Virus record (IMG/VR): IMGVR_UViG_3300020369_000001
Coordinates: 8,840 to 72,839 of that record
DNA: 64,000 nt
Strand: one strand, 5' to 3'
Source of the DNA: a virus
Taxonomy: Duplodnaviria; Caudoviricetes
Made by a program: the position numbers and the translations under genes. Shown one piece after another: positions 1 to 11,971 of the stretch (position 1 is its first letter; every line of letters starts with the position of its first letter). The notes below the pieces were generated by a model that worked only from the letters and a program-made list of their open reading frames with translations, did no database searches and was not told where the DNA came from.

Positions 1-2
1 AG

Positions 3-1415
3 GTCTTGCTTGATAATGTCTATGTATGCGGGTCAGAACTCAACGCAAAATTTCCTAGTAGAACCAGCTCTATTGGAATTAGAGTATCAACAGTTACAGG
101 CTTGCGCATTTCAGATAGCCAGATTTTCTTACTAGGAACCGGTATTGATGTATCCGGTCAGTCAGAAGGAGGAATTTTTTCCGGGCTAACTATAGTGTCT
201 GTCGATGTTGGTATAGAGTTCCATGATTTAATCAGCCCTTCCAATAATCATGTTATAGAGGGTTCGCATATTGCCGCATACACTAGGGGGGTTAGAATCA
301 CAGGATACGGCGTGTCGGAAATGATAACCGCAGTGTTCATCAGTAATTGCTTCATTCTTGAAAGAGAGGAAGCAACCACTACTACTAAAAGTGAATACGT
401 CGCACTTGATATTATAGCGGAGCGTTCTGTTATAAGTAATACAACAATACAGTGTAATACTAGCAGGACACCAAGCAGAACCGCCATAAGGATTCCAAGC
501 AGCAATAACATAATATCCAATATTATTGGATTAAATATAGGATCGCTTATTGATGCTGTAGACTCAGGAGACGGAAGGTTTAGCTATGTTTCAAATTGTA
601 TAGCAAACGGGAATTTAGATTCTTTAACTAAGGGCGCGACACACCTTTTTGTTAAAGGTGGCAATGTAATGGGGTCTATGCAGACGACAGCGCATTGGAA
701 TGCAAACACTTTCGCTGCGGCTGATTTAGACGATAAGAACTTGTTTGAGTTTTCGGGTAGGCGACTACTCCTTGGCGCTGATCGCGACAAGGGCTCTCGA
801 TACATTGACTTTAGAACACTTGTGGCAGGGACAGCAGATTTTGACACAAGAATCCTTTCTATAGGGGGTGGCGCAGCAACGGGGCAAGGGTCTTTGATAT
901 TTTACTCCTCATCGTCAATTTTTGAGGGTCAGATCAGGCCTTCAGTAGATTCTGAATTCTCTACGGGCAGCCCTAGTTACAGGTGGTCGGAGATTTACTC
1001 GACCACGGGCACAATAAACACGTCCGACGAGCGTGAAAAACAGGATATCTCGACTCTTGATGCGTCGGAGGCGCTAGTCGCAAAGCGGCTAAAAAGCCTA
1101 GTCAAAAAATTCCGCTTCCGCGATGCCGTCGAAAAAAAGGGAGCTGATGCTCGCATTCACGTTGGCGTGATTGCACAGGAGGTTGCCGAAGCCTTCGCAG
1201 ATGAAGGGCTTGATGCTCACCGCTACGGCATCCTCTGCTACGACGAGTGGGGCGAGCAAGAAGAGATCATTCAGTCTTGGGAAAATGAGTACGATGGCAA
1301 TGGCGCACTGACTAGATCAGCAGGTAGCGAGGTAGTACAAGAATACCGCCCTGCTGGGAACCGTTACGGCGTGCGCTATGAAGAACTTCTAGCCTTTATT
1401 ATCAGCGCTATGTAA
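3..1415 (+). CDS. Tailspike/tail fibre, 3' part (5' end is outside the window), with C-terminal intramolecular chaperone (peptidase S74-like) domain
   Basis: Beta-helix-like I/V/S/N-rich region, then TSDEREKQDI...HVGVIAQEV...YGVRYEELLAF, typical of auto-cleaving chaperone domains; frame is open to the window start. Confidence 0.85.
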   Translation, partial: VLLDNVYVCGSELNAKFPSRTSSIGIRVSTVTGLRISDSQIFLLGTGIDVSGQSEGGIFSGLTIVSVDVGIEFHDLISPSNNHVIEGSHIAAYTRGVRITGYGVSEMITAVFISNCFILEREEATTTTKSEYVALDIIAERSVISNTTIQCNTSRTPSRTAIRIPSSNNIISNIIGLNIGSLIDAVDSGDGRFSYVSNCIANGNLDSLTKGATHLFVKGGNVMGSMQTTAHWNANTFAAADLDDKNLFEFSGRRLLLGADRDKGSRYIDFRTLVAGTADFDTRILSIGGGAATGQGSLIFYSSSSIFEGQIRPSVDSEFSTGSPSYRWSEIYSTTGTINTSDEREKQDISTLDASEALVAKRLKSLVKKFRFRDAVEKKGADARIHVGVIAQEVAEAFADEGLDAHRYGILCYDEWGEQEEIIQSWENEYDGNGALTRSAGSEVVQEYRPAGNRYGVRYEELLAFIISAM

Positions 1416-1515
1416 CCCTCACGAACAAGCGTTATACAGCAAGCCAGGAGGCTTCCTAATGGCAACAGATATTAACGCCCTCTAGTCCGATCTACCCATG
1501 TCGTCTTGACGCCAC

Positions 1516-1544
1516 ACTCACCCCACACTCTGGGGTGAGTTTTT
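1516..1544 (+). terminator. Rho-independent terminator
   Basis: Perfect 10-bp stem ACTCACCCCA/TGGGGTGAGT, 5-nt loop, T tract. Confidence 0.85.
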
Positions 1545-1625
1545 AATTATAGCTGTCACTTGATACTCTCTAATATATACTACTCTTTAGATCAAACTTA
1601 CTAATAGTTATATTGGATTAATATT

Positions 1626-1958
1626 ATGTCTAATGAGTCATTAGAGGTGCAACTGGCAAGACTAGATGAACGCAATAAAATGATTCTTATGAACATGGAA
1701 AATAGTCAACGTGATTCCAAAGAAGCACGAGAACATTTAAGGGAAGCCTTTGAATCTATTCGTTCTATTGATTCTAGATTGGAGAGATTAGAAGGCAGCT
1801 TTGCTACAACACAGCCTACAATTAATGAGTTCCGATCAGTAAAACAGAAGATAATTGGGGCAGGAATTTTAGGTAGGTGGGTATGGGTGGCTTTAACTGG
1901 TATCCTAGGATTACTCTATACAGTGCGTGAACATGTCATCGCATTTGTCACCAAATAA
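1626..1958 (+). CDS. Holin-like membrane protein (coiled coil plus C-terminal TM helix)
   Basis: 110 aa, heptad-rich N-terminus, hydrophobic GILGRWVWVALTGILGLLYTV. Confidence 0.5.
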   Translation: MSNESLEVQLARLDERNKMILMNMENSQRDSKEAREHLREAFESIRSIDSRLERLEGSFATTQPTINEFRSVKQKIIGAGILGRWVWVALTGILGLLYTVREHVIAFVTK

Positions 1959-1972
1959 TATGAGTAGCATAT

Positions 1973-2119
1973 ATGAATGACGATAATGAAATTCCTACTT
2001 TTAATGCAGCCATGCCCCCAAAGCTCACTGACTGGGAAAAGGAACCAAGCCTAAGAGACTTCGCATACCCTAATCAAACACAAATAGTAAACATAACCTT
2101 AACAGGTGACTTCGCATAA
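1973..2119 (+). pseudogene. 48-codon ORF whose N-terminal part resembles the start of an N4-like (Schitoviridae) portal protein; probable remnant
   Basis: Own translation MNDDNEIPTFNAAMPPKLTDWEKEPSLRDFAYPNQTQIVNITLTGDFA; KLTDWEKEPSL recalls the KLTxWKxExSL N-terminal motif of N4 gp59-type portals (recalled, not searched); 11-bp direct repeat GACTTCGCATA at 2057 and 2108. Confidence 0.5.
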
Positions 2120-2143
2120 ACATTTTTTTAAAGGTGATTTAAC

Positions 2144-4312
2144 ATGACTAAGATTGAAAAACCCTTAAACCTTACGAATACAATTTGGGCAGCAGGTGGG
2201 GAAGCTGTAGAACCCTCTAATTCAAAGAAACTCCAAGGGTGGGTTGCTGAAATCCCCCCTTTCCAATTTGAAAACTGGCTTCAAAACCGTAATGACCGTG
2301 CGCTTGCACATATCATCCAAATGGGTATCCCTGAATGGGATGCAAACACTGAATACCAAGCTAACCAATCTTATGTACAAGATGAAGATGGTGAGGTTTA
2401 CCGTGCAACTGAGACACATACAGGTGTCAATCCTAAGTACGATACTGCAAACGTATGGGAACAACCCTTCTCATTCGATGCTCTAAAAGAACTTGCCACA
2501 GAAGAATCTACAGGTGTTGTTCGTAAAGCTGCTCAACAAGATATTGACCAAGGTACTCCTGGTTCTATCTTTGCAGACCCTTCGCAGATTCGACAGCTTG
2601 TTGAGAATATTAATGCCTCTTGGATAACAGGTGGTGTTCTTTCAAGTGGTACGTTACCAGATGCTACGGAATCTGATAAAGGCGCTGTGCGTAAAGCACG
2701 TCAATCAGACATTGATAATGGTACTGGTGATGATCGTTTCATCAGCCCTCGCCAGTTAAAATCCGTAGCTGATGATATTAAATCAACAACTGCTGGTGTA
2801 GCTTTATCAGGCAATCCTGTGATTACAGCAGGTTCTTCTGAGAATTATCAAATCACTAACTTCTCATCTTTCGATACTTATGAAGTTTCTATTGAGTTTG
2901 ATAATGGTGGTACTGGGAATGTCTCTATCACGGATGATCTAATTTCTGTAGATATTGATGCAGGTGCTACTGGCGGGGTCATTTTAACAGTCACTAAAGG
3001 GGGTGTTGCTTATGACTTCGAACTTGCTATCGGGTCTTCTCGAATTAACCGTCCATCTATTATATTCCCTGTAAATGGTGCTACTAATATGCCTACAAAT
3101 ATCACGTTAGAATCTTCGAACTTCACAACCACACCAGCAGGCTTTGACACACACACTGCAACTGATTGGCAAGTAGCTACTGACATCACGTTTAGTAATG
3201 TTATTGCAGAGTCTTTAAATGACACGACTAATCTTTTACAGTGGTCTGTAGATGCTGATTTACAACCTAATACAACCTACTACGCAAGGGTTCGTTATTA
3301 TGGCAATACATTAACAGTATCCTCTTGGTCACAAACAGCTTCTTTTGAGACTGCTGAGCGGCCTGCCACACCTACTATCACAAGCCCTTCGAATGGTGAG
3401 ATTAATGTTGGAGAAACACCGACAATCACTACGAGTAACTTTTCAAGTCCTATTAGTGAAACCCATCAAGCAACAGATTGGGAAATCCGTTTAGCTTCGA
3501 ATGATTCTTTAGTATGGTCTTCGATGAACAACACTTCTAATCTTACTTCTATTACGGTTCCTTCAGGACAACTTGCTGAGTCTACTGAATACCGTATCCG
3601 TGTAAGACATATCGGTTCTCAGTTAGGAGCTTCTGCATGGGGTACTTCTACATTTACTACTGAAGCGCAGTTCTTTGTATTTGATCCAAGCAGTGCTGGT
3701 GAACCTTTTGGTGGTGGTTATTATGCAGGCGCTAATATCGTTGTAGGTGGTACTACTTATGCGTTGGTAGTTGCTCCTAAAGCGCAAGGTGGTGAAGCCG
3801 GTTCAACATTACCTTGGGAGTGGACTGTTGATCCAGATGTTCCAGGGGCAACCTCTACTAATGATGGTGCAAGTAATACCGCAGCGATTGTAGCGGCAGG
3901 TGGTTCTTCTACAAGTGTTGCGGCGGGGTTTTGCAATAATCTTAGTATCAATGGTTACACTGATTGGCATTTGCCTAGTGCTGATGAACTTGAGATTTGT
4001 TATCGGTATTTGAAACCCACTACTCAGGCTAACTATGTAAATTCTAGTTATGGGCCTAATCCTGGTGGTAATGGTTCTAACCCTAATAGTGATCCTGTTG
4101 GTGGTGATTATACTTCTAGTAATCCTGCACAGACTTCTATTGCTATCTACCAATCTGGTGCGAGTGAGGCGTTTGTTGCTAATTACTACTGGACTTCAAC
4201 GCAGCTCTCCGCTGGGGTCGCTTGGCGCCAGCGCTTCGACAATGGCGACCAGGGCACGTACCTCAAGTCGGACTCGTACTACGTCCGCGCAGTTAGATGG
4301 GTCGAAGTGTAA
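2144..4312 (+). CDS. Tail fibre / receptor-binding protein: baseplate-attachment N-terminus, two FN3/Ig-like repeats, C-terminal DUF1566/Lcl (C-type lectin fold) domain
   Basis: N-terminal WAAGG...GWVAEIPPFQFENWLQNRND...GIPEWD; duplicated P-x-I-x-x-P-x-NG...H-x-ATDW...Y-x-x-RVR modules; C-terminal GYTDWHLPSADEL...YYWTSTQ...YYVRAVR. Confidence 0.85.
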   Translation: MTKIEKPLNLTNTIWAAGGEAVEPSNSKKLQGWVAEIPPFQFENWLQNRNDRALAHIIQMGIPEWDANTEYQANQSYVQDEDGEVYRATETHTGVNPKYDTANVWEQPFSFDALKELATEESTGVVRKAAQQDIDQGTPGSIFADPSQIRQLVENINASWITGGVLSSGTLPDATESDKGAVRKARQSDIDNGTGDDRFISPRQLKSVADDIKSTTAGVALSGNPVITAGSSENYQITNFSSFDTYEVSIEFDNGGTGNVSITDDLISVDIDAGATGGVILTVTKGGVAYDFELAIGSSRINRPSIIFPVNGATNMPTNITLESSNFTTTPAGFDTHTATDWQVATDITFSNVIAESLNDTTNLLQWSVDADLQPNTTYYARVRYYGNTLTVSSWSQTASFETAERPATPTITSPSNGEINVGETPTITTSNFSSPISETHQATDWEIRLASNDSLVWSSMNNTSNLTSITVPSGQLAESTEYRIRVRHIGSQLGASAWGTSTFTTEAQFFVFDPSSAGEPFGGGYYAGANIVVGGTTYALVVAPKAQGGEAGSTLPWEWTVDPDVPGATSTNDGASNTAAIVAAGGSSTSVAAGFCNNLSINGYTDWHLPSADELEICYRYLKPTTQANYVNSSYGPNPGGNGSNPNSDPVGGDYTSSNPAQTSIAIYQSGASEAFVANYYWTSTQLSAGVAWRQRFDNGDQGTYLKSDSYYVRAVRWVEV
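4184..4312 (+). other. DGR-type variable region (VR) at the 3' end of the tail fibre gene
   Basis: YYWTSTQ-x-AW-x-Q-x-F-x-NG-x-Q-x-K-x-YVRAVR scaffold; 17 of 28 codons in 4205-4288 end in C, versus 2 of 33 in 4082-4180. Confidence 0.65.
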
Positions 4313-4489
4313 CGCAGCGAAGCGTAGTTGGAACGAAGTACCCATCCCTATAACCTAAACCTTGGTGGTCGCTGCCTCCGGGCAAGCACCATCTCTACTA
4401 ATCATTGTTGAAGCCCTGAACTGAGTCTTGCTGTTGTAAGGTTTCCAGTATAAACTTTAAAGTACACCTTATGAGTAAAGGAGTTTTAA

Positions 4490-5035
4490 ATGTACTTTAA
4501 ACCATTACCGCAACAGCAATTCCTACAAGAGTGCTTTGACTACAATGACAACACAGGCCAACTTACTTGGAAAGAACGTCCAAGAACACACTTTAACACG
4601 AACAACGCGCATAAAAGGTTTAACAATACACTCTCCGGTAAAATCGTTGGGACTACGCATAAGGGGAGAATGATTGTAAGATTCACATCCCAAGGGAAAG
4701 CATTAAATTACCCAATAGGCAGACTGATCTTCAAACTTGTTACTGGCGAAGACCCTAAAGGTGTCATTGACCATATCGACGGCAACCCTTTCAACAACGC
4801 TTGGGACAACCTGCGTGACATAAGTATAGGTGATAATGTGGCAAATATGCATAGTGTTAAGCGTAAAGGTTTACAAGGTGTTTGTTATGATAAGTCTCGG
4901 GGGAAGTGGTTGGCTAACATTAGGATACGCGGTAAAAAGATTTACTTAGGTCGTTTTGAAACCGAACAAGAAGCATATGACGTTTACATGCAAGCCAAAC
5001 AAAAACGTCTGTCAGAAATTAAAGAAATCATTTAA
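4490..5035 (+). CDS. Free-standing HNH homing endonuclease with C-terminal AP2 domain
   Basis: IDHIDGNPFNNAWDNLR (HNH); GVCYDKSRGKWLANIRIRGKKIYLGRFETEQEA (AP2). Confidence 0.9.
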   Translation: MYFKPLPQQQFLQECFDYNDNTGQLTWKERPRTHFNTNNAHKRFNNTLSGKIVGTTHKGRMIVRFTSQGKALNYPIGRLIFKLVTGEDPKGVIDHIDGNPFNNAWDNLRDISIGDNVANMHSVKRKGLQGVCYDKSRGKWLANIRIRGKKIYLGRFETEQEAYDVYMQAKQKRLSEIKEII

Positions 5036-5059
5036 AAACCAATCAGGAGTATCTACACT

Positions 5060-5674
5060 ATGAAATACATCCGTTACACATTAGTTGATAAGAAAACCAA
5101 TAAACCTGTTTCACAAGAACCTGCAAAGAATGGCCCAAAACATCCTGACGGTGTTACCCCAACATTCGATATTCAATCAACATTCTCAACAGGTGTTCCT
5201 ACAATCTACGGTATTGCTGAAGATACTTTTGAACCCGCTGATTGGATGTTTGAACTCTCCGAAGAATCCTTCTACACCACCATGCGACAAGAATTTAAAA
5301 CACGTGCTTCAGATCGTCGCAAGACTGTAGAGCGTGGTGGGTATTGGGTAACTCCTGAGACTTTTGTAAGAACTGACGAAGGTTCCCAGAACCGTCTTGC
5401 ACAGCTTGTGACAACCATTAATAACGATCCTGATCTTGTATCAGTAGACTTCGAAGTAACACCAGGACAATGGACAACCTTTGATACAGCTACTGCATTA
5501 ACGGTTGCAAAGACAGTATCAAGGCATGTCCAACGTTGCTTTAGCTGGTGTAAAGGTGTCCATGAATCTTTAGATGCTGCAAATACTTTAGATCAAATGC
5601 AACCTATTGTCAACGATATTTCAAACTTTGTTGCTGACGATAACCCGCCTGTGCAGGCTACACAAGATGCTTGA
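5060..5674 (+). CDS. Tail fibre assembly/accessory protein (DUF4376-like C-terminus)
   Basis: RRKTVERGG...VRTDEGSQNRL...HVQRCFSW pattern; lies downstream of the fibre gene. Confidence 0.6.
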   Translation: MKYIRYTLVDKKTNKPVSQEPAKNGPKHPDGVTPTFDIQSTFSTGVPTIYGIAEDTFEPADWMFELSEESFYTTMRQEFKTRASDRRKTVERGGYWVTPETFVRTDEGSQNRLAQLVTTINNDPDLVSVDFEVTPGQWTTFDTATALTVAKTVSRHVQRCFSWCKGVHESLDAANTLDQMQPIVNDISNFVADDNPPVQATQDA

Positions 5675-5828
5675 TTCATTGACTATTAAAGAATGGCAGC
5701 TTATCTACTTCTTAATCACAATGACTTTCACACTGTTTAACACACTCGTCTTGTTATCTTGTGTACGTGTTGTAGATAAACTGTTCCATGAGAGTGAGTT
5801 ATTAAAACTTATTAAGAAACAAACATAA
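5667..5828 (+). CDS. Small single-TM membrane protein (lysis cassette)
   Basis: ATG at 5667 overlaps the upstream stop; hydrophobic WQLIYFLITMTFTLFNTLVLL. Confidence 0.5.
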   Translation: MLDSLTIKEWQLIYFLITMTFTLFNTLVLLSCVRVVDKLFHESELLKLIKKQT

Positions 5829-5846
5829 GACTAAGGATTCTCAATT

Positions 5847-6146
5847 ATGCCACCAACAAGTGATATAGAAAGACGCTTAATGTCTTTGGAGGAAGAGGAT
5901 AGGCGTCTTCGTGATGCTTTAGGAAAACTTGTGACGAATACGGAGGTGATGAATAACACCTTGCAAATCCTTACTGGTGACATTTCTCCAAGGATGGAGA
6001 ACCTTGAAAAAGAAGTAAGAGGTATGCAGAACAGACAATCAACAAACACATTGATATTGGATGTTGTTAAGTGGTTTGCAGCACTTATTGCAGGTTCTTC
6101 AGTAACAATGGCGATGGTTTATTTGTTTCAGAATGGAGGTTCTTGA
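5847..6146 (+). CDS. Holin-like protein (coiled coil plus C-terminal TM helix)
   Basis: Directly upstream of the endolysin (TGATG overlap); TM WFAALIAGSSVTMAMVYLF. Confidence 0.55.
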   Translation: MPPTSDIERRLMSLEEEDRRLRDALGKLVTNTEVMNNTLQILTGDISPRMENLEKEVRGMQNRQSTNTLILDVVKWFAALIAGSSVTMAMVYLFQNGGS

Positions 6147-6640
6147 TGAATTGGTTTGATGAAGTGATTAAAAGGAAACCTGATAAACGAATACCTGTAA
6201 AAGACCTTACACACTCTCAATCTGCTGTTGATATTATTAAGGAGTTTGAAGGTTATCGTTCAAAGGCGTATTTAGATGCAGTCGGGATTCCAACAATAGG
6301 GTATGGGTTCGTTAAAGGTGTTTCTCTTGGTGATACAATTACTAAAGAGGATGCTGTAAAGCGCCTTGAGGATGAAATTAGTGAACATACGGCAGCTATC
6401 CATCAACGTGTAAAAGTTCCTCTGTACCAGCATGAATACGATGCACTAGCTTCTTTTATATTCAATGTTGGTAAAGGTGCATTTGCACGTTCAACACTCC
6501 TGAAGAAACTTAACCAAGGTGATTATAAAGGCGCTGCTGATGAATTGTTAAGATGGGATAAGGCAGGTGGGAAGTCTTTAAGAGGTCTTACTAGGAGACG
6601 TGAAGCAGAACGCAAGATGTTCCTTGGTGGTGATTTATGA
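6146..6640 (+). CDS. Endolysin, GH24 phage lysozyme
   Basis: IKEFEG...AYLDAVGIPTIGYG (E-x8-D-x5-T triad); DALASFIFNVG; GLTRRREAER; likely start is ATG 6146, not 6071. Confidence 0.95.
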   Translation: MNWFDEVIKRKPDKRIPVKDLTHSQSAVDIIKEFEGYRSKAYLDAVGIPTIGYGFVKGVSLGDTITKEDAVKRLEDEISEHTAAIHQRVKVPLYQHEYDALASFIFNVGKGAFARSTLLKKLNQGDYKGAADELLRWDKAGGKSLRGLTRRREAERKMFLGGDL

Positions 6641-6909
6641 TTAAGAAGGTATTACTCAGCAGCCTACTAACAATCACATTAACAGCCTGTACAGCAATCC
6701 AAACACCTTTTGACGAAGATTATACCTTTGGAGACACGTACAAATCTGTGTACACACTTCAACAAACCTATTGCGCATCTACTGATCCTGCACAGCAAGC
6801 ACTTTACAGGGGGCTTCTTAAACGCCTTTATGGTGACTACCCCTCCGAAGGTGTTTGCACAGATATTCTTGAGGTGTTGAATAGTTATGAAGAAGATAAC
6901 CAAGGTTGA
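6637..6909 (+). CDS. Lipoprotein, possible o-spanin/accessory lysis protein
   Basis: Signal peptide with lipobox LTAC immediately after the endolysin. Confidence 0.6.
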   Translation: MIKKVLLSSLLTITLTACTAIQTPFDEDYTFGDTYKSVYTLQQTYCASTDPAQQALYRGLLKRLYGDYPSEGVCTDILEVLNSYEEDNQG

Positions 6910-7306
6910 TGACTTAACACTTTTAGTTACCACACCAGTACCTAGGGATTATCCTGCAAAGCACCTTGCTAAGAAATCTGACAAAGTAATGTTGGTTGAG
7001 GATTATGTTGTAAGGGTTACTTTTGAAGATGGCTCTACGATAATCATCAGAGTTCCTAAACTGTATGTGACAGATGGTTCAAGTGTCCCTAGGTTCTTCC
7101 ACAGGGTCTATCATCCTTTCATTACGGAAGCGCGATGGTCGAGCTGTGTACATGATTATATCTACAGCGACCTTTACAAGTATTACTCAAAGGAATTTGC
7201 TGATGAACTTCTAAGGTTTATGATAAAGCGTGATGGTGGTCATTGGTTTATGCAGCAAGCTTTCCATAAGGCTGTCAGGCTTAATATCAAAGGAGGTGGT
7301 TGGTAA
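6887..7306 (+). CDS. DUF1353-like protein
   Basis: VPKLYVTDGSSVPR...VHDYIY...ADELL motif. Confidence 0.75.
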   Translation: MKKITKVDDLTLLVTTPVPRDYPAKHLAKKSDKVMLVEDYVVRVTFEDGSTIIIRVPKLYVTDGSSVPRFFHRVYHPFITEARWSSCVHDYIYSDLYKYYSKEFADELLRFMIKRDGGHWFMQQAFHKAVRLNIKGGGW

Positions 7307-7473
7307 TGCAATATAAACAGCGTATCAAGGATAACAGTGAAAGCATCTCTGTAAGCGCTTCTGTATTGGCTGTGTGGATCTTTACAACGTATACCAATAC
7401 TAACCCACCAGCAGAAGTCATCGTTGCTTTAGGAACCCTTGTAGGGGCTTTTGCAGCCCGTTTGAAAGGATGA
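7306..7473 (+). CDS. 55-aa two-TM membrane protein, holin candidate (not in the ORF track)
   Basis: MQYKQRIKDNSESISVSASVLAVWIFTTYTNTNPPAEVIVALGTLVGAFAARLKG; TAATG overlap with the upstream stop. Confidence 0.55.
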   Translation: MQYKQRIKDNSESISVSASVLAVWIFTTYTNTNPPAEVIVALGTLVGAFAARLKG

Positions 7474-7490
7474 TACACATAGAAACAAGA

Positions 7491-7540
7491 AAGCCCCTAT
7501 CAGGAACCTTTGTAAAGAGGAACTTGAACAGGGGCTTTTT
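7491..7540. terminator. Likely bidirectional terminator between convergent lysis and nrd blocks
   Basis: AAGCCCCT...AGGGGCTTTTT with A tract upstream. Confidence 0.7.
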
Positions 7541-7552
7541 ATTACTCACTAC

Positions 7553-7813
7553 TTAATCAAATAATTCGTCAGGGTCATGGTATTTATACTTCCTCAAAAG
7601 ATCATCATAACCGCCTACGATTGATGAAGTCCCTTCGAGAGAAGAATCAACAATGAATGGGACAGTCTTACGGTTCATTTCATGTTTAACAAAATGCAGA
7701 GCCTTATCATCTTGTGAAATGTCGATGTATTGGTGATTTAGATTCAAATTCTTAATGTATTCTAAGGCTAGTGTGCAGTATGGGCAGTTGGGTTTACCGT
7801 AAACGAATAGCAT
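7553..7813 (-). CDS. grx: Glutaredoxin
   Basis: CPYC active site, TVP motif, VGGYDDL. Confidence 0.95.
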   Translation of the reverse strand: MLFVYGKPNCPYCTLALEYIKNLNLNHQYIDISQDDKALHFVKHEMNRKTVPFIVDSSLEGTSSIVGGYDDLLRKYKYHDPDELFD

Positions 7814-8028
7814 GTTTTAATTATTCTCCCCACACATTTTTAGGTTTCCATACGTCGCAATATGTCGTGAAGCACCCAAGATTACAAATGTCTTCCAAAT
7901 AGAATTAAAAGTTTGCAGAGCTTGTGAGTGGTTGATGGTGTAGTTTTGGATTTCTTTGTCTAATTGCATGTTAAGTCTCCGTCTGATTGTTGGTTGTTTA
8001 AAAGCCCCCCAAAGAGGGCGCTTGTTAG

Positions 8029-10722
8029 TTATGCTTCGCAAGCCACGCAGTCATCCTTACGGCCCGTAGCAAGTTGTTTAGAGGCGTTCAAGTTGTATTG
8101 GTAGTAGAGTGATACAACACCACGTTCCCAAGCATAATACATAAGACTGTTAATCTCTTTCACAGGCATACTTGGATGAACCATGATATTCAAAGACTGG
8201 CTCTGGTCATAATATACCTGACGATCAGCGGCGTGGTCAATAATTTCTTTAGGACTGATTTCTTGCATTGTCTTGAACACATTCTTTTCATGTTCACTCA
8301 AGAAGTCCAGATGCTGAACACTGCCATCATTTTTAGAAATGCTGTCCCAAACGTCAGGTGTGTCCTTGCCATATTCTTGCAAAAGCTTTTCCAATGCTGA
8401 ACTTTTAACTTCTACCTTGAGCTTTGCAAAATCAGCAATGTAATAGTTAGAGAATAGTGGCTCAATACCCTGCGACACACCGCCAGCCAAAAGACTTGAA
8501 GACTTTGTAGGGGCGCACGCCATGAGCGTTGTGTTACGTCTCCCATACCCTTCAAGCACTTCAGGTTCACCAAACAATCCTGCAAGCTCTTTAGAAGCCT
8601 TGTAAGCCTTCTCTTCAATAACCTTATGGACTTCTTTGTTCAATTCTCTTGCTTCTTCAGACTCAAAAGGGATCATCTTGTCTTGAAGCATTGTGTGGTA
8701 AGCTAGTACGCCCATTCCGAGCGCTCTGTGACGCTTCATAAAACGATATGCACGCTTCATAAAAAAGAATGTTGTTTCCTTTTCATGGTCTTCAGAATCC
8801 CGCATAGCTTCAAGTTTCTCAAGGCTTTCTGTAACTACTGAGTCAAGGAAGTACACAAGTGTTTCTACAGCATCCGTGTCTTTCCAATCATCATACTTCT
8901 TCAAGTTCATTGATGAAAGCACGCACACAAAGCTCTCTTCATTGTTTGAAGGCAGTGATATTTCCGAGCATTGGCCTGTCAAAATACCGTTAAACATACC
9001 CATTCCACGTTTACTTTCAGTGAAACAGTAGGTGTTGTCATAACGCCCCTCATCAATAACTTCTACCACTTTGTTGAAGTGGCTGCATTCACGGTTCCCA
9101 CGATAACTGTAGTCAAGATTAAGGCGGCTAAATTTTATACCTAAATCTACAAGCTTGCCTACTTCATGTTGACCGAGCAATAATCTCCAAGCTTCTTGGC
9201 AATAGAACGCTTTATTCTCACCAGAACCATCATTAGCAGGCATCATCCTTTCACCAGCATCGGCAGCATGGTTGATACGTGAGTTTACCCCAAGCGTTTG
9301 CAGCATCATTTGAACATCTTGCAAAAACCCTTTGTTAATACTCCCCAGTTGCAAGGATTGTGTCTTTCCATTTCTGGCGATTGTCCCATCAGAATCGAAT
9401 ATACCTGCTAACCATTCTAAACGACTTTCTACAGTATAGTCATGGGTAGGCACAAAGAACTTATCTTTCAATACATCGCTGTGACCATACTCCCGGTTCA
9501 AGTTGTCTTGAACATACCAATTTTTAAAGATGTCTCCAAGCCGTTCTTTTACAGCATTGAGTCTTTTGTCGTGGTAGAGGTAAATGCGTTTTCCGTCAGC
9601 AGTTAAGCAGCCATCGCCAGTATAGAAACCGTTTGCGTAAGCGTTGTCTAGGACTTCGGAACCCTCTACGACAGGCAAAGAGTCAAACTTAATCAGCTTA
9701 TCACCGGTTTGCAAGTCCTGTGCGCGCTTTTCAATCACTTTACTACAACTGTAGGAAGTCTGCACATAGAACTTGTGGTAAGGTGTACATTCTAGTTCCA
9801 ATCCATTAGAAGTAATAACCTTTACAAGCTTCTGGTTATCCCCTGTCCTTCGAACTGTAGTTTCAGACCACTCTTTACCATTCCATACTTGTACATCTTC
9901 ATTTTCTAATTCGGCAATTTCGATATAACCTTCAGAAGTTAAGATTTTAGTCTCGGGGGATACACAAAGATTACTAGAGTGAATATCCATACCCTTGTCT
10001 TTGTAGACTTCTGGTTTATTTCGATTTGCGTTATCCAACCACACCAAGTACGGAAAGCCTATCTCTCCACGAACTTTCAAAGTTTTCGCCCAAATCTTAC
10101 GGTTCCGCTTATCTCTTTCAGTCTCCCCGCGTTTAACAGATTCCATAAATTCATCTGAAACAGTGACGCCTGTAGTAACATCTTGGATCAAATTCCCGTC
10201 GCGTGCAATCTCTAAAAACTCTTCTGCGTCCGCGTGCTCAAGACTCAGATAGGGTGCTACCCGACCCCTTCGCTGCGAACCTTGGGAGATTACATCAGTA
10301 ACCTGTTCGAAGAGTCGTGCAAAATGTACTGCTCCAGAAGTCTTTCCATTATTGGTAATGTCGCTACCCCTTGGTCGAATAGGTGTTAGATTAACTGACG
10401 TGCCACCGCCAAGTTTTGACATAATACCAATCTCAGACTGTGTAAAAAGAATGTCTGGAATGCTGTCTTCACAGTGACTGTTAAAACATGAGATAGGCAA
10501 CCCACGATCTTCACGGCCATAGTTTGCCCATACAGGACTCGACAAGCTATAGAAACCCTTTGCCATGTAGTCATACATCTTGTTAGAGAATCCTTCTAAC
10601 CCAAGACGTTTCTCAGCAGCATCGCAAATATCTCGGATACGTCCTTCGGCAGTTTCTCCCTCTAATGTGTATCCAGACTGTAGAAATTTACGTGAGTTTT
10701 CGTTCAACCATTCAAATGACAT
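8029..10722 (-). CDS. nrdA: Class I ribonucleotide reductase alpha subunit (no ATP cone), interrupted by an intein
   Basis: LPISCF, GGGTS, SNLC//SEI, CAPTKSSS, SQSLN, C-terminal CVACEA. Confidence 0.95.
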   Translation of the reverse strand: MSFEWLNENSRKFLQSGYTLEGETAEGRIRDICDAAEKRLGLEGFSNKMYDYMAKGFYSLSSPVWANYGREDRGLPISCFNSHCEDSIPDILFTQSEIGIMSKLGGGTSVNLTPIRPRGSDITNNGKTSGAVHFARLFEQVTDVISQGSQRRGRVAPYLSLEHADAEEFLEIARDGNLIQDVTTGVTVSDEFMESVKRGETERDKRNRKIWAKTLKVRGEIGFPYLVWLDNANRNKPEVYKDKGMDIHSSNLCVSPETKILTSEGYIEIAELENEDVQVWNGKEWSETTVRRTGDNQKLVKVITSNGLELECTPYHKFYVQTSYSCSKVIEKRAQDLQTGDKLIKFDSLPVVEGSEVLDNAYANGFYTGDGCLTADGKRIYLYHDKRLNAVKERLGDIFKNWYVQDNLNREYGHSDVLKDKFFVPTHDYTVESRLEWLAGIFDSDGTIARNGKTQSLQLGSINKGFLQDVQMMLQTLGVNSRINHAADAGERMMPANDGSGENKAFYCQEAWRLLLGQHEVGKLVDLGIKFSRLNLDYSYRGNRECSHFNKVVEVIDEGRYDNTYCFTESKRGMGMFNGILTGQCSEISLPSNNEESFVCVLSSMNLKKYDDWKDTDAVETLVYFLDSVVTESLEKLEAMRDSEDHEKETTFFFMKRAYRFMKRHRALGMGVLAYHTMLQDKMIPFESEEARELNKEVHKVIEEKAYKASKELAGLFGEPEVLEGYGRRNTTLMACAPTKSSSLLAGGVSQGIEPLFSNYYIADFAKLKVEVKSSALEKLLQEYGKDTPDVWDSISKNDGSVQHLDFLSEHEKNVFKTMQEISPKEIIDHAADRQVYYDQSQSLNIMVHPSMPVKEINSLMYYAWERGVVSLYYQYNLNASKQLATGRKDDCVACEA
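8971..9966 (-). mobile_element. Intein (332 aa) with LAGLIDADG endonuclease, inserted just before the NrdA catalytic Cys
   Basis: Starts CVSPETKILT; LECTPYHKF (block B); NGFYTGDG and WLAGIFDSDG (LAGLIDADG); NTYCFTE...FNGILTGQ followed by CSEI. Confidence 0.92.
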
Positions 10723-10738
10723 TATTAAATATCTCCTA

Positions 10739-11971
10739 TTAAAACAAGTCGTCTTCAGTAAATGACTTATTAACCTTGGTGTAGTTTACGTTCTTACGTG
10801 CAAAGAAATCAGGATTGGTGGTACTGTTCACCTGAATTTCAAACCACTGGAACTTCTCTTTCGTCTTATCTTGTACTTCAAAAACCTCTGGGAAACCGAT
10901 CATTTCCATGCTCTTGTTGAAACGCCAACGTAGATAATCTTTGACTTCTTCTTTTGAAACAAAATCTAAATCGCCACCTTCAAAAATCCAATCCAAAATC
11001 TCACTTTCTGCATCCATACTGACTTTGCAAGCATCATGAGTATCTTGAACAAGCGCCTCAGTAAACCAATCAGGATTCTCTTCTTTGATCGTGTTGATGA
11101 TCTCGGCACCAAACATGGCGTGAACGCTCTCATCACAAGCAGAGCTTTGAACAACATTGCTAATGCCTACCAGCATATTCTTGTAGTTGTCAAAGCATGA
11201 CATAATCAAGAATTGCCCAAACAATGATACATTCTCAACAAACATTGAGAAGAGCAACACTGAACGCATGAACTCTTTGTTGCTTGAATCATTGGGTGAT
11301 ACAAAACGCTTTAGGTATTCTTGCCGCTTACGAAGACAATCAATGTTATCAAGGTCTTCAAAAAGCTCATTCATCCCAAGGTACTCTAAAAGCTGTGAAT
11401 AAGCTGTTGCGTGGATAGATTCGTTGTTACTGAAAGCTGCTCCTACATCTGCCACTTCAGGCTTGGGTAAACGGTCGTAAAGTTTTCCCCAGAAGGTTTT
11501 CACAAACCTCGCTTCAATCTGTGAAATAGCCAGCATTGTCCGTTGGATTACTTGGCGTTCATTCTCACTTAGTTCTGAATGATACTCTTGGATAGACGCT
11601 GTGAAGTTAAACTCATCGACTACCCAGAACGCTTGGTGTACAGCATCCATGTACTGCTTAAAATGCGGATACTCAAACGGTTTGTAGTTCTCCCTTGGTC
11701 GAAAAATGTCAGGTTCATGTGCTTTCCGATAAGTAACATACTCTCTCGCAACGTCAAAAGCCTTAGCGTTCATAATACCGTCTTCAACAAGTTTATGAAC
11801 CGTATCAACACTCACAATATCTTCTTCAATATTCTTCTTCACATACCGTACAACCTTATCTTGCAGCTTATCATCTTCATAGTCAGTCCGTGACATTGCT
11901 TTACCAACGGCTGCTTTAATCTTCTCACCATCAAAACTTACAACGTCACCATTACGCTTCAATACTTGCAT
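10739..11971 (-). CDS. nrdB: Ribonucleotide reductase beta subunit with N-terminal ATP-cone fusion (class Id / NrdBi-like)
   Basis: MQVLKRNGDVVSFDGEKIKAAV (ATP cone); KPFEYP, MLAISQIE, VKTFW, LPKPE, ESIH, ENVSLF, DESVH. Confidence 0.9.
   Translation of the reverse strand: MQVLKRNGDVVSFDGEKIKAAVGKAMSRTDYEDDKLQDKVVRYVKKNIEEDIVSVDTVHKLVEDGIMNAKAFDVAREYVTYRKAHEPDIFRPRENYKPFEYPHFKQYMDAVHQAFWVVDEFNFTASIQEYHSELSENERQVIQRTMLAISQIEARFVKTFWGKLYDRLPKPEVADVGAAFSNNESIHATAYSQLLEYLGMNELFEDLDNIDCLRKRQEYLKRFVSPNDSSNKEFMRSVLLFSMFVENVSLFGQFLIMSCFDNYKNMLVGISNVVQSSACDESVHAMFGAEIINTIKEENPDWFTEALVQDTHDACKVSMDAESEILDWIFEGGDLDFVSKEEVKDYLRWRFNKSMEMIGFPEVFEVQDKTKEKFQWFEIQVNSTTNPDFFARKNVNYTKVNKSFTEDDLF

What the first reader, a model, noticed from the sequence alone, without database searches (positions are those of the whole stretch)
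4184..4312. Orphan DGR variable region on the tail-fibre tip, with no template repeat, avd or RT in 64 kb
Seen: the last ~40 codons of the DUF1566/C-type-lectin domain switch abruptly from T-ending codons (25 of 33 in 4082-4180) to C/G-ending codons (25 of 28 in 4205-4288, of which 17 are NNC). NNC codons (CTC, TCC, GTC, CGC, CGC, GAC, GAC, GGC, TAC, CTC, GAC, TAC) fill the slots between the invariant W/T/S/T/Q, AW, Q, F, NG, Q, K and YVRAVR residues. Established: DGR templates carry AAC codons at these slots, and adenine-specific mutagenesis turns them into NNC. No second copy of the segment and no RT was found by eye on either strand. Inference: the receptor-binding site was diversified by a DGR acting from elsewhere (rest of the genome, a host or co-infecting element), or a finished VR was recombined in. 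A lytic phage using someone else's DGR in trans would be notable.
Basis: partly seen in the sequence, partly recalled or inferred. Interest (0 to 1): 0.8.

Follow-up and report, generated by a model that had tools for sequence, protein, structure and literature searches.

The report
Relic DGR target in tail fibre
The GC-rich tip of this marine phage's tail-fibre gene was written by a diversity-generating retroelement, but a selfish homing-endonuclease gene now sits where sister phages still carry that retroelement, so the receptor-binding site is most likely a frozen relic, not the target of a DGR acting from elsewhere.

Summary
Window 4199-4288 (90 nt) is a real DGR variable region (VR) at the C-terminus of an Lcl_C/DUF1566 lectin-fold tail fibre. 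The complete 72.8-kb genome has no template repeat (TR), Avd or reverse transcriptase (RT).

The missing engine is found in sister phages with 95-98% identical backbones. They carry avd-TR-RT in the slot between the fibre gene and the next gene (DUF4376). The TR of sibling L203 differs from the window's VR at 18 positions, 17 of them template adenines (P=9e-9).

In the window that slot holds a 181-aa HNH-AP2 homing endonuclease gene (4490-5035). Homology to the DGR-bearing siblings stops at 4413. It resumes at 5036 with the last 8 codons of the lost RT.

Other relatives show a second endonuclease allele (37% identical), decayed endonuclease genes, an Avd::AP2 fusion, or an empty slot. Their VRs carry ordinary non-adenine mutations.

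A 1,486-bp tract (VR plus endonuclease) is 100% identical between lineages that are otherwise 3% apart. This suggests the VR allele travels with the endonuclease by co-conversion.

In-trans rewriting by co-infecting siblings is not excluded (about 10%), but nothing supports it. Earlier reports of this scan describe HNH genes replacing DGR cores in other phages, on other DNA.

The parts
2144..4312 (+). Tail-fibre gene (722 aa, P0001): two Ig-like repeats followed by a C-terminal Lcl_C/DUF1566 lectin-fold domain.
   Evidence: ORF list. Pfam Ig_Rha78A_N and Lcl_C. Its position after the baseplate wedge genes in relatives.
3905..4297 (+). Lcl_C (DUF1566) C-type-lectin-like domain, residues 588-718.
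   Evidence: Pfam PF07603, E=1.2e-10, 42.1 bits against a cut-off of 34.9. Model pLDDT 95.3; best PDB match 8q4e, the Lcl C-terminal domain.
4199..4288 (+). DGR variable region (90 nt, from ACGCAG to GTCCGC). It has 12 NNC codons at the positions where the sibling TRs have AAC.
   Evidence: Against TR_L203 there are 18 mismatches, 17 at template adenines, hypergeometric P=9e-9. VRs of relatives differ almost only at these positions.
4296..4346 (+). Conserved stem-loop just 3' of the VR, spanning the stop codon. The stem pairs 4296-4303 with 4338-4346, and an inner CGC/GCG mini-hairpin lies at 4313-4324. It is a candidate cis target-recognition element.
   Evidence: The 8-bp stem is 100% paired in 11 relatives, with 2 pairs changed on both sides. 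Its function is inferred by analogy with the BPP-1 hairpin/cruciform (PMC3240598).
4364..4393 (+). GC-rich hairpin with a UCCG-type loop. The structure is kept in relatives with different sequences. It could be a terminator-like or target-site element.
   Evidence: Alignment of 11 relatives and DNA fold. Its function was not tested.
4400..4413 (+). Left junction. This is the last stretch homologous to the DGR-bearing sibling L187, and it is the start of an antisense-TR element that is complete only in L187 and L203.
   Evidence: Homology to L187 ends at window 4413. The antisense-TR repeat in L187 is shown.
4490..5035 (+). HNH_3 + AP2 homing endonuclease gene (HEG-A, 181 aa). It lies in a 622-bp module (4414-5035) that occupies the place of the roughly 1,750-bp avd-TR-RT.
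   Evidence: Pfam HNH_3 and AP2, phrog_99, junction mapping.
5036..5063 (+). Scar of the lost reverse transcriptase. The last 8 codons plus stop of the RT ORF (5037-5063) are 100% identical to L187 and L203, and the stop overlaps the start of the next gene.
   Evidence: BLAST and direct comparison of the sequences.
5060..5674 (+). DUF4376 gene (204 aa; phrog 'tail fiber protein'). It forms the right border of the polymorphic slot in all relatives.
   Evidence: Pfam, PHROGs, gene contexts.
3614..5098 (+). A 1,486-bp tract that is 100% identical to lineage L194, which is about 3% divergent on both sides. It is a putative homing co-conversion tract carrying the lectin domain, the VR and HEG-A together.
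   Evidence: Distribution of differences along the locus.

Best explanation
Window 4199-4288 is a genuine DGR variable region. It was written by adenine-specific mutagenic retrohoming from a TR that lay about 0.7 kb downstream, in an avd-TR-RT cassette between the fibre gene and the DUF4376 gene, as in sister phages today. In this lineage a free-standing HNH-AP2 homing endonuclease gene replaced that cassette. The most likely route (inferred) is double-strand-break repair during co-infection, using the conserved VR 3' flank and the DUF4376 gene as homology arms. What remains is the VR, its 3' cis elements and the last 8 RT codons. The receptor-binding sequence is therefore frozen. The endonuclease module appears still able to move, taking this VR allele along on a roughly 1.5-kb co-conversion tract. 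Shown here: the VR/TR relationship, the absence of the cassette, the junctions, the RT scar, and the polymorphism of the slot. Inferred: the homing mechanism, the order of events, and that no rewriting occurs now.
For: (1) Four DGR-bearing relatives have VRs that differ from their own TR at 14-17 positions, all at template adenines. The window's VR differs from TR_L203 at 17 adenines plus one synonymous non-A site, P=9e-9. I had predicted an ACG codon for the cognate TR from the endonuclease-bearing VRs, and TR_L203 has it. (2) L187 and L203 have backbones 94.7-97.6% identical to the window and carry Avd (126 aa), TR and RT (351 aa, RVT_1) in the slot. (3) Homology to L187 stops at 4413 and resumes at 5036 at 100% identity, including the RT's last 8 codons. 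(4) The whole closed genome has no RT, Avd or TR. (5) The slot shows a decay series. It runs from HEG-A, to HEG-B (37% aa identity to HEG-A), to frameshifted and truncated HEG-B, to a chimera of Avd residues 1-88 with an AP2 tail, to an empty slot. (6) VRs without an RT carry private non-adenine substitutions in 6 of 8 alleles, against 0 of 4 in DGR-bearing phages (Fisher P=0.03). (7) The VR is identical in every locus examined from the 41 contigs that carry the three HEG-A fibre variants. (8) A 1,486-bp tract of 100% identity surrounds the VR and HEG-A.
Against: Five HEG-B genomes each carry a different VR, differing at about half the adenine sites, although their HEG-B genes differ by only 5-20%. 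Without trans action this requires several independent captures, or crossovers within the roughly 75-nt 3' flank. That 3' flank is as conserved in RT-less genomes as in DGR-bearing ones; for example it is 100% identical between L014 and L197, whose neighbouring sequence differs by 6-10%. So the flank may still be in use. The identical VR across the HEG-A contigs can be explained by recent co-conversion, so it shows stasis only over a short time. No reads could be examined, so minority variants would not be seen.
Confidence: 0.78

Rival explanations
1. The VR is still being rewritten in trans. DGR-bearing sister phages co-infecting the same cell would supply Avd, RT and TR RNA, which retrohome into the RT-less phage because its VR 3' recognition elements are intact.
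For: [quoted passage not shown] Near-cognate TRs exist in siblings with 95-98% identical backbones. The 3' stem-loop is fully conserved in RT-less genomes. HEG-B genomes carry five different VRs.
Against: RT-less VRs carry private non-A substitutions (for example GGC to GGT in L186 and TCC to CCC in L190) that rewriting from a TR would erase. No HEG-A locus examined shows a different VR. TR_L203 has GCC where all RT-less VRs have GCT, and TR_L187 has GAG where they have ACG, so neither sampled TR has overwritten them. Recombination and co-conversion explain the VR/endonuclease combinations without trans action.
Confidence: 0.1
2. This is a variant of the main explanation rather than an exclusive rival. 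The VR allele in this particular genome was not made in its own lineage. It arrived ready-made with HEG-A on a roughly 1.5-kb homing co-conversion tract from another phage.
For: Window 3614-5098 is 100% identical to L194, while the flanks differ by 3-5%. L186 is 99.7% identical to the window in the 640 nt before the VR, then switches to HEG-B-type markers from about 120 nt upstream of the VR onwards.
Against: The direction of transfer (into the window's lineage or out of it) cannot be told from two lineages. A selective sweep or chance conservation of a short tract is possible.
Confidence: 0.4
3. A DGR encoded by the bacterial host, or by a plasmid or prophage in it, targets the phage fibre gene during infection.
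For: None found, beyond the general fact that DGRs can act on non-adjacent targets (PMC5758913).
Against: Two pattern scans of 185,579 species-representative genomes found no cognate or near-cognate TR or VR. The cognate-type TRs that were found all lie in sister phages, at the adjacent slot. The host is unknown and may not be among the representatives.
Confidence: 0.02
4. There was no DGR involvement. The segment would be a GC-rich fragment acquired by ordinary horizontal transfer, or a codon-usage fluke.
For: GC jumps by about 20 points.
Against: The mismatches to sibling TRs are adenine-specific (P=9e-9). The NNC codons coincide one-for-one with the AAC codons of four independent TRs.
Confidence: 0.01

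Closest known systems
Bordetella phage BPP-1 DGR (mtd-avd-TR-brt)
   Same: A phage receptor-binding protein with a C-terminal lectin-fold VR. In the sister phages the order is target, then avd, TR and RT. Mutagenesis is adenine-specific at AAC codons. An inverted-repeat structure lies just 3' of the VR.
   Different: In the window avd, TR and RT are gone. The target domain is Lcl_C/DUF1566, not Mtd. The TR is only 90 nt. VR/TR homology ends at GTCCGC, and the conserved stem-loop begins 8 nt later and encloses about 35 nt. The phage is a roughly 73-kb marine myovirus with no integrase.
DGRs with DUF1566/'CLec2' targets (category d of Wu et al. 2017, PMC5758913; exemplified by Legionella LdtA)
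   Same: The same target domain family and the same VR scaffold (W..ST, AW, F, NG, K, VRxVR). TR motifs of this class are widespread: about 165 loci.
   Different: Here the target is a phage tail fibre with Ig-like repeats, not a bacterial lipoprotein, and the cassette is missing.
Free-standing HNH-AP2 (I-HmuI-like, phrog_99) homing endonuclease genes of phages, with marker exclusion and co-conversion as known for the T4 seg/mob genes (recalled knowledge)
   Same: A small intergenic HNH_3+AP2 gene. It shows presence/absence polymorphism at one locus among near-identical phages, two unrelated alleles in the same slot, decayed copies, and a tract of perfect identity around it.
   Different: It displaces a whole three-part retroelement rather than inserting between genes. 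The cleavage site is unknown. Its co-conversion tract includes a receptor-binding hypervariable site.
Earlier reports of this scan: HNH genes replacing DGR cores in Pseudomonas and Paraburkholderia prophages and in epsilon crAss-like phages (e1-3503105, e1-3641028, e1-5918724, e1-3134000, e1-3643253)
   Same: An HNH gene sits where avd, TR and RT should be. An RT C-terminal stub and already diversified targets are left behind.
   Different: Those are other phage groups and other DNA, and I did not re-test them. Here the whole of avd and the TR is gone. A population series (intact, HEG-A, HEG-B, chimera, empty) is available within one species-level group.

Membership tests
Diversity-generating retroelement (complete, autonomous) | DGR-type reverse transcriptase gene in the genome | tested here: not met
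   No RVT_1 match at E<=10 in the closed 72.8-kb genome. No tblastn match to a sibling's RT, with a positive control on L203. Only the last 8 codons survive, at 5037-5063.
Diversity-generating retroelement (complete, autonomous) | Template repeat in the same genome, differing from the VR only at adenines | tested here: not met
   The best adenine-tolerant match in the genome has 25 non-A mismatches in 90. blastn-short finds nothing.
Diversity-generating retroelement (complete, autonomous) | Accessory protein Avd | tested here: not met
   No match to a sibling's Avd in the genome. The sibling's 126-aa protein gives sub-threshold bAvd and 23S_rRNA_IVP matches.
DGR variable region (product of mutagenic retrohoming) | Mismatches to a cognate TR confined to template adenines, mostly in AAC codons | tested here: met
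   Against the TR of sibling L203, 17 of 18 mismatches are at adenines, P=9e-9. The own VR/TR pairs of the relatives have 0 non-A mismatches.
DGR variable region (product of mutagenic retrohoming) | VR at the C-terminal end of a C-type-lectin-fold target protein | tested here: met
   Pfam Lcl_C above its cut-off. Model pLDDT 95; best PDB match is the Lcl C-terminal domain, followed by C-type lectins and Mtd.
DGR variable region (product of mutagenic retrohoming) | Cis target-recognition structure (hairpin/cruciform) directly 3' of the VR | tested here: inconclusive
   A conserved 8-bp stem (4296-4303 with 4338-4346) is 100% paired in 11 relatives, with 2 compensatory pairs. Its fold energy is not exceptional (z=-0.78) and its role in homing is untested.
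DGR variable region (product of mutagenic retrohoming) | Ongoing hypervariation within populations | not testable with these tools
   No reads are available. At the consensus level the VR is identical in all HEG-A loci examined.
Free-standing HNH-AP2 homing endonuclease gene | HNH nuclease motif plus AP2 DNA-binding domain in a small stand-alone ORF | tested here: met
   Pfam HNH_3 (E=3e-9) and AP2 (E=2e-8), both above their cut-offs. phrog_99, E=1e-44.
Free-standing HNH-AP2 homing endonuclease gene | Presence/absence polymorphism at one locus among close relatives, with a co-conversion tract | tested here: met
   The slot holds avd-TR-RT, HEG-A, HEG-B, a chimera or nothing in relatives. A 1,486-bp tract of 100% identity surrounds HEG-A.
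Free-standing HNH-AP2 homing endonuclease gene | Site-specific cleavage of the endonuclease-free (here DGR-bearing) allele | not testable with these tools
   This needs an enzyme assay.

The most novel reading that the evidence does not exclude
RT-less, endonuclease-bearing phages could keep their VR and its 3' recognition structure intact because DGR-bearing sister phages, with near-cognate TRs and 95-98% identical backbones, rewrite the VR in trans during co-infection. The retroelement would then act as a shared good within a phage population, and the endonuclease carriers would be free-riders.
Probability: 0.1. Interest if true: 0.75.

Novelty: new member of a known kind. Interest (0 to 1): 0.4.

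Why it matters
This finding settles an apparent paradox. A textbook DGR variable region sits in a complete phage genome that has no DGR, and the explanation is an ordinary, documented history rather than a new mechanism.

Three points are useful beyond this locus:

- Within one species-level group of abundant marine myophages, the DGR engine is a dispensable, polymorphic module. Homing endonuclease genes have displaced it at least twice. My two literature searches that combined DGR and homing-endonuclease terms returned no paper describing this, and the scan has met the same pattern in unrelated phages.
- The endonuclease's co-conversion tract appears to include the receptor-binding VR. A selfish nuclease may therefore spread one fixed host-recognition allele through a population that otherwise diversifies it.
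- Surveys that count DGR targets, or that infer trans-acting DGRs from orphan VRs, should first look for displaced cassettes in relatives.

The RT-less lineage is the commoner one in the searched databases. Its fibre variants lie on 41 contigs, many of them from Tara Oceans or other marine metagenome samples, while the RT cluster has only 7 members. Losing the diversifier is evidently not fatal.

Tried and rejected
- **GenBank phages:** blastn of the VR region and megablast of window 1-9000 found no relatives.
- **VR 3'-flank pattern in IMG/VR:** this returned only the four relatives already known.
- **General TR/VR class pattern:** this gave about 165 loci in IMG/VR and metagenomes, but none had a TR cognate to this clade.
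- **Cognate-TR patterns:** two scans of GTDB species genomes and one of IMG/VR found nothing.
- **Dating the cassette loss against VR diversification:** I tried to do this from the divergence of the endonuclease genes and the flanks. I abandoned it because the region is mosaic, with co-conversion tracts. The 'single loss, then diversification' argument for trans action therefore does not hold.
- **The 114,763-nt NCBI MAG contig and the full L187 contig:** neither could be fetched.
- **PDB sequence search of the lectin domain:** this gave nothing significant. The fold search did.
- **Literature:** searches for orphan VRs and for DGRs together with homing endonucleases found no description of this displacement.
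Full report
**1. The observation**

The window is bases 8840-72839 of a 72,839-bp virus record. Its ends repeat 77 bp, which is a k-mer overlap, so the assembly is circularly closed and complete.

ORF 2144-4312 (+) encodes a 722-aa tail fibre. It has Ig-like repeats and a C-terminal Lcl_C (DUF1566) domain at residues 588-718.

In 4082-4180, 25 of 33 codons end in T. In 4205-4288, 25 of 28 end in C or G, and 17 are NNC. NNC codons make up 13.7% of the rest of the gene, so this run has P=4e-8. GC rises from about 0.40 to 0.64.

An AlphaFold model of the last 214 residues (pLDDT 95.3) has the Legionella Lcl C-terminal domain as best PDB match. C-type lectins and Mtd follow.

**2. No DGR engine in the genome**

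Several independent searches of the whole genome came back empty:

- No RVT_1 match at E<=10.
- No second copy of 4150-4420 with 7-mer seeds.
- No adenine-tolerant template; the best candidate has 25 non-A mismatches in 90.
- No tblastn match to the Avd or RT of a sister phage, while the same queries hit L203 at 96-98%.
- No tyrosine integrase.

**3. Relatives show what it is**

IMG/VR and the large protein collection hold a family of about 70-kb marine myophages with this fibre.

Five of them carry an Avd-like gene (126 aa), a 90-nt TR and an RT (351-384 aa, RVT_1). These sit between the fibre gene and the next gene, DUF4376. The five are L003, L006, L187/L188, L189 and L203.

In the four for which both VR and TR are available, the VR differs from its own TR at 14-17 positions. 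All of these are template adenines, and almost all lie in AAC codons.

The window's NNC codons coincide one-for-one with those AAC codons.

From the VRs of the RT-less relatives I inferred that their cognate TR should equal TR_L187, except for ACG in place of GAG at one codon. The TR later fetched in L203 has exactly that ACG.

L203's 6 kb downstream of the slot are 97.6% identical to window 5036-11060. The window VR differs from TR_L203 at 18 positions. Seventeen are adenines and one is a synonymous GCT/GCC (hypergeometric P=9e-9).

The VR is therefore a true product of mutagenic retrohoming. Its limits are 4199-4288.

**4. What replaced the cassette**

Homology between the window and the DGR-bearing sibling L187 runs to 4413. 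It resumes at 5036 at 100% identity.

Positions 5037-5063 encode the last 8 residues and the stop of the sibling's RT. That stop overlaps the DUF4376 start.

Between these points L187 has about 1,750 bp of avd-TR-RT. The window has 622 bp carrying a 181-aa HNH_3+AP2 homing endonuclease, HEG-A, at 4490-5035.

Other relatives fill the same slot differently:

| Slot content | Loci |
|---|---|
| HEG-B, 177 aa, 37% identical to HEG-A | G001 (L014), L186 |
| HEG-B frameshifted | G003 (L015), L197 |
| HEG-B truncated to 60 aa | L190 |
| 130-aa chimera: Avd residues 1-88 fused to an HEG-A-like AP2 tail | L192, L193 |
| Empty; the fibre stop overlaps the DUF4376 start and the VR's third codon positions have drifted | L202 |

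This is a decay series. It implies at least two independent endonuclease invasions of the DGR slot.

**5. Frozen or still rewritten?**

Four observations favour a frozen relic:

- RT-less VRs carry private substitutions at non-adenine sites: one each in L186, L190 and L015, two in L014, several in L192 and L202. Rewriting from a TR would erase these. VRs of DGR-bearing phages have none (6 of 8 against 0 of 4, Fisher P=0.03).
- All seven examined loci of the three HEG-A fibre variants have the identical VR and 3' flank. Those variants lie on 22, 18 and 1 contigs, many from Tara Oceans or other marine metagenome samples.
- Neither sampled sibling TR has imprinted its diagnostic non-A bases on any RT-less VR.
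- No cognate TR exists in 185,579 species genomes or in IMG/VR.

Three observations argue for caution:

- Five HEG-B genomes have five different VRs, although their endonuclease genes differ by only 5-20%.
- The 3' flank is as conserved in RT-less phages as in DGR-bearing ones.

I first read the HEG-B pattern as pointing to trans action. The region proved to be mosaic, which removes that argument. Between the window and L194, 3614-5098 is 100% identical while both sides differ by 3-5%. L186 is 99.7% identical to the window up to about 120 nt before the VR, then switches to HEG-B-type markers.

Homing with crossovers in the conserved 3' flank, or co-conversion through the VR, explains every VR/endonuclease combination seen. 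I put in-trans rewriting at about 10%.

**6. The cis elements**

Eight nucleotides after the VR, an 8-bp stem pairs 4296-4303 with 4338-4346. It encloses a CGC/GCG mini-hairpin and the stop codon.

The stem is 100% paired in 11 relatives. Two of its pairs change on both sides.

A second GC-rich hairpin (4364-4393) keeps its structure with different sequences in relatives.

By analogy with BPP-1 these could be the target-recognition structure (PMC3240598). This is an inference. The single-sequence fold energy is unremarkable.

**7. Comparison with what is known, and verdict**

The system works like a BPP-1-type phage DGR with a DUF1566/'CLec2' target (PMC5758913). The window is not a DGR, because three defining parts were tested and are absent. 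It is the relic target of one.

Displacement by an HNH-AP2 homing endonuclease resembles marker exclusion and co-conversion by free-standing endonucleases in T-even phages (recalled knowledge).

My two literature searches that combined DGR and homing-endonuclease terms returned no paper describing endonuclease displacement of DGR cassettes. Earlier reports of this scan describe the same pattern in Pseudomonas, Paraburkholderia and crAss-like phages. I did not re-test those.

The 'trans DGR' reading is not supported. The finding is a well-documented new member of a known kind, with a modestly novel population-level story.

Noticed in passing
L187:6259-6307 (also the first ~160 nt of L203); remnant at window 4400-4413: In the DGR-bearing siblings, the space between the VR-flank hairpin and avd holds an antisense copy of the central TR. 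One arm is 22 nt and 100% complementary to the TR; the next is 27 nt and 93% complementary. L003 lacks it. It could pair with TR RNA or with the VR. Its function is unknown.
   Followed up: partly
L192:3918-4310 and L193: A 130-aa ORF is a chimera. Avd residues 1-88 (94% DNA identity to L187's avd) are fused in frame to an HEG-A-like AP2 C-terminus, with no TR or RT. It is a deletion product showing that avd and the endonuclease once coexisted in the slot.
   Followed up: partly
L203:1-20: The 7.9-kb contig of the DGR-bearing sibling starts a few bases after the VR, and the other RT-cluster members lie on 1.4-3.1-kb contigs. The endonuclease-bearing genomes assemble as 70-kb contigs. This would fit assemblies breaking at a hypervariable VR only where the DGR is active. 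It was not tested.
   Followed up: no
L200 (NCBI GCA_002706095.1, contig PAJP01000006.1): The exact fibre protein and a 7.3-kb stretch 100% identical to the window lie on a 114,763-nt MAG contig, although the phage genome is 72.8 kb. It could be a concatemeric assembly, a chimera or an integrated copy. The contig could not be fetched.
   Followed up: no
window 1-2044 against L187:3041-3986: The tailspike gene (pectate-lyase fold, endosialidase-like, Peptidase_S74 chaperone) and the 110-aa ORF upstream of the fibre gene have no counterpart in sibling L187, whose fibre gene directly follows the baseplate wedge genes. L186 and L194 carry a different roughly 1,000-aa gene there. This is a second polymorphic receptor-binding module next to the first.
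   Followed up: partly
window 8029-10722 (-): The large-subunit ribonucleotide reductase gene is interrupted by an intein with a LAGLIDADG endonuclease domain, according to the Pfam calls on the identical gene in relatives. This is another selfish nuclease in the same 10 kb.
   Followed up: no
window 7000-7199 against L194: There are 47 differences in 200 nt between the window and L194, against about 5 per 200 nt elsewhere. This is a local hot spot at the end of the DUF1353 gene and the start of the next small ORF.
   Followed up: no
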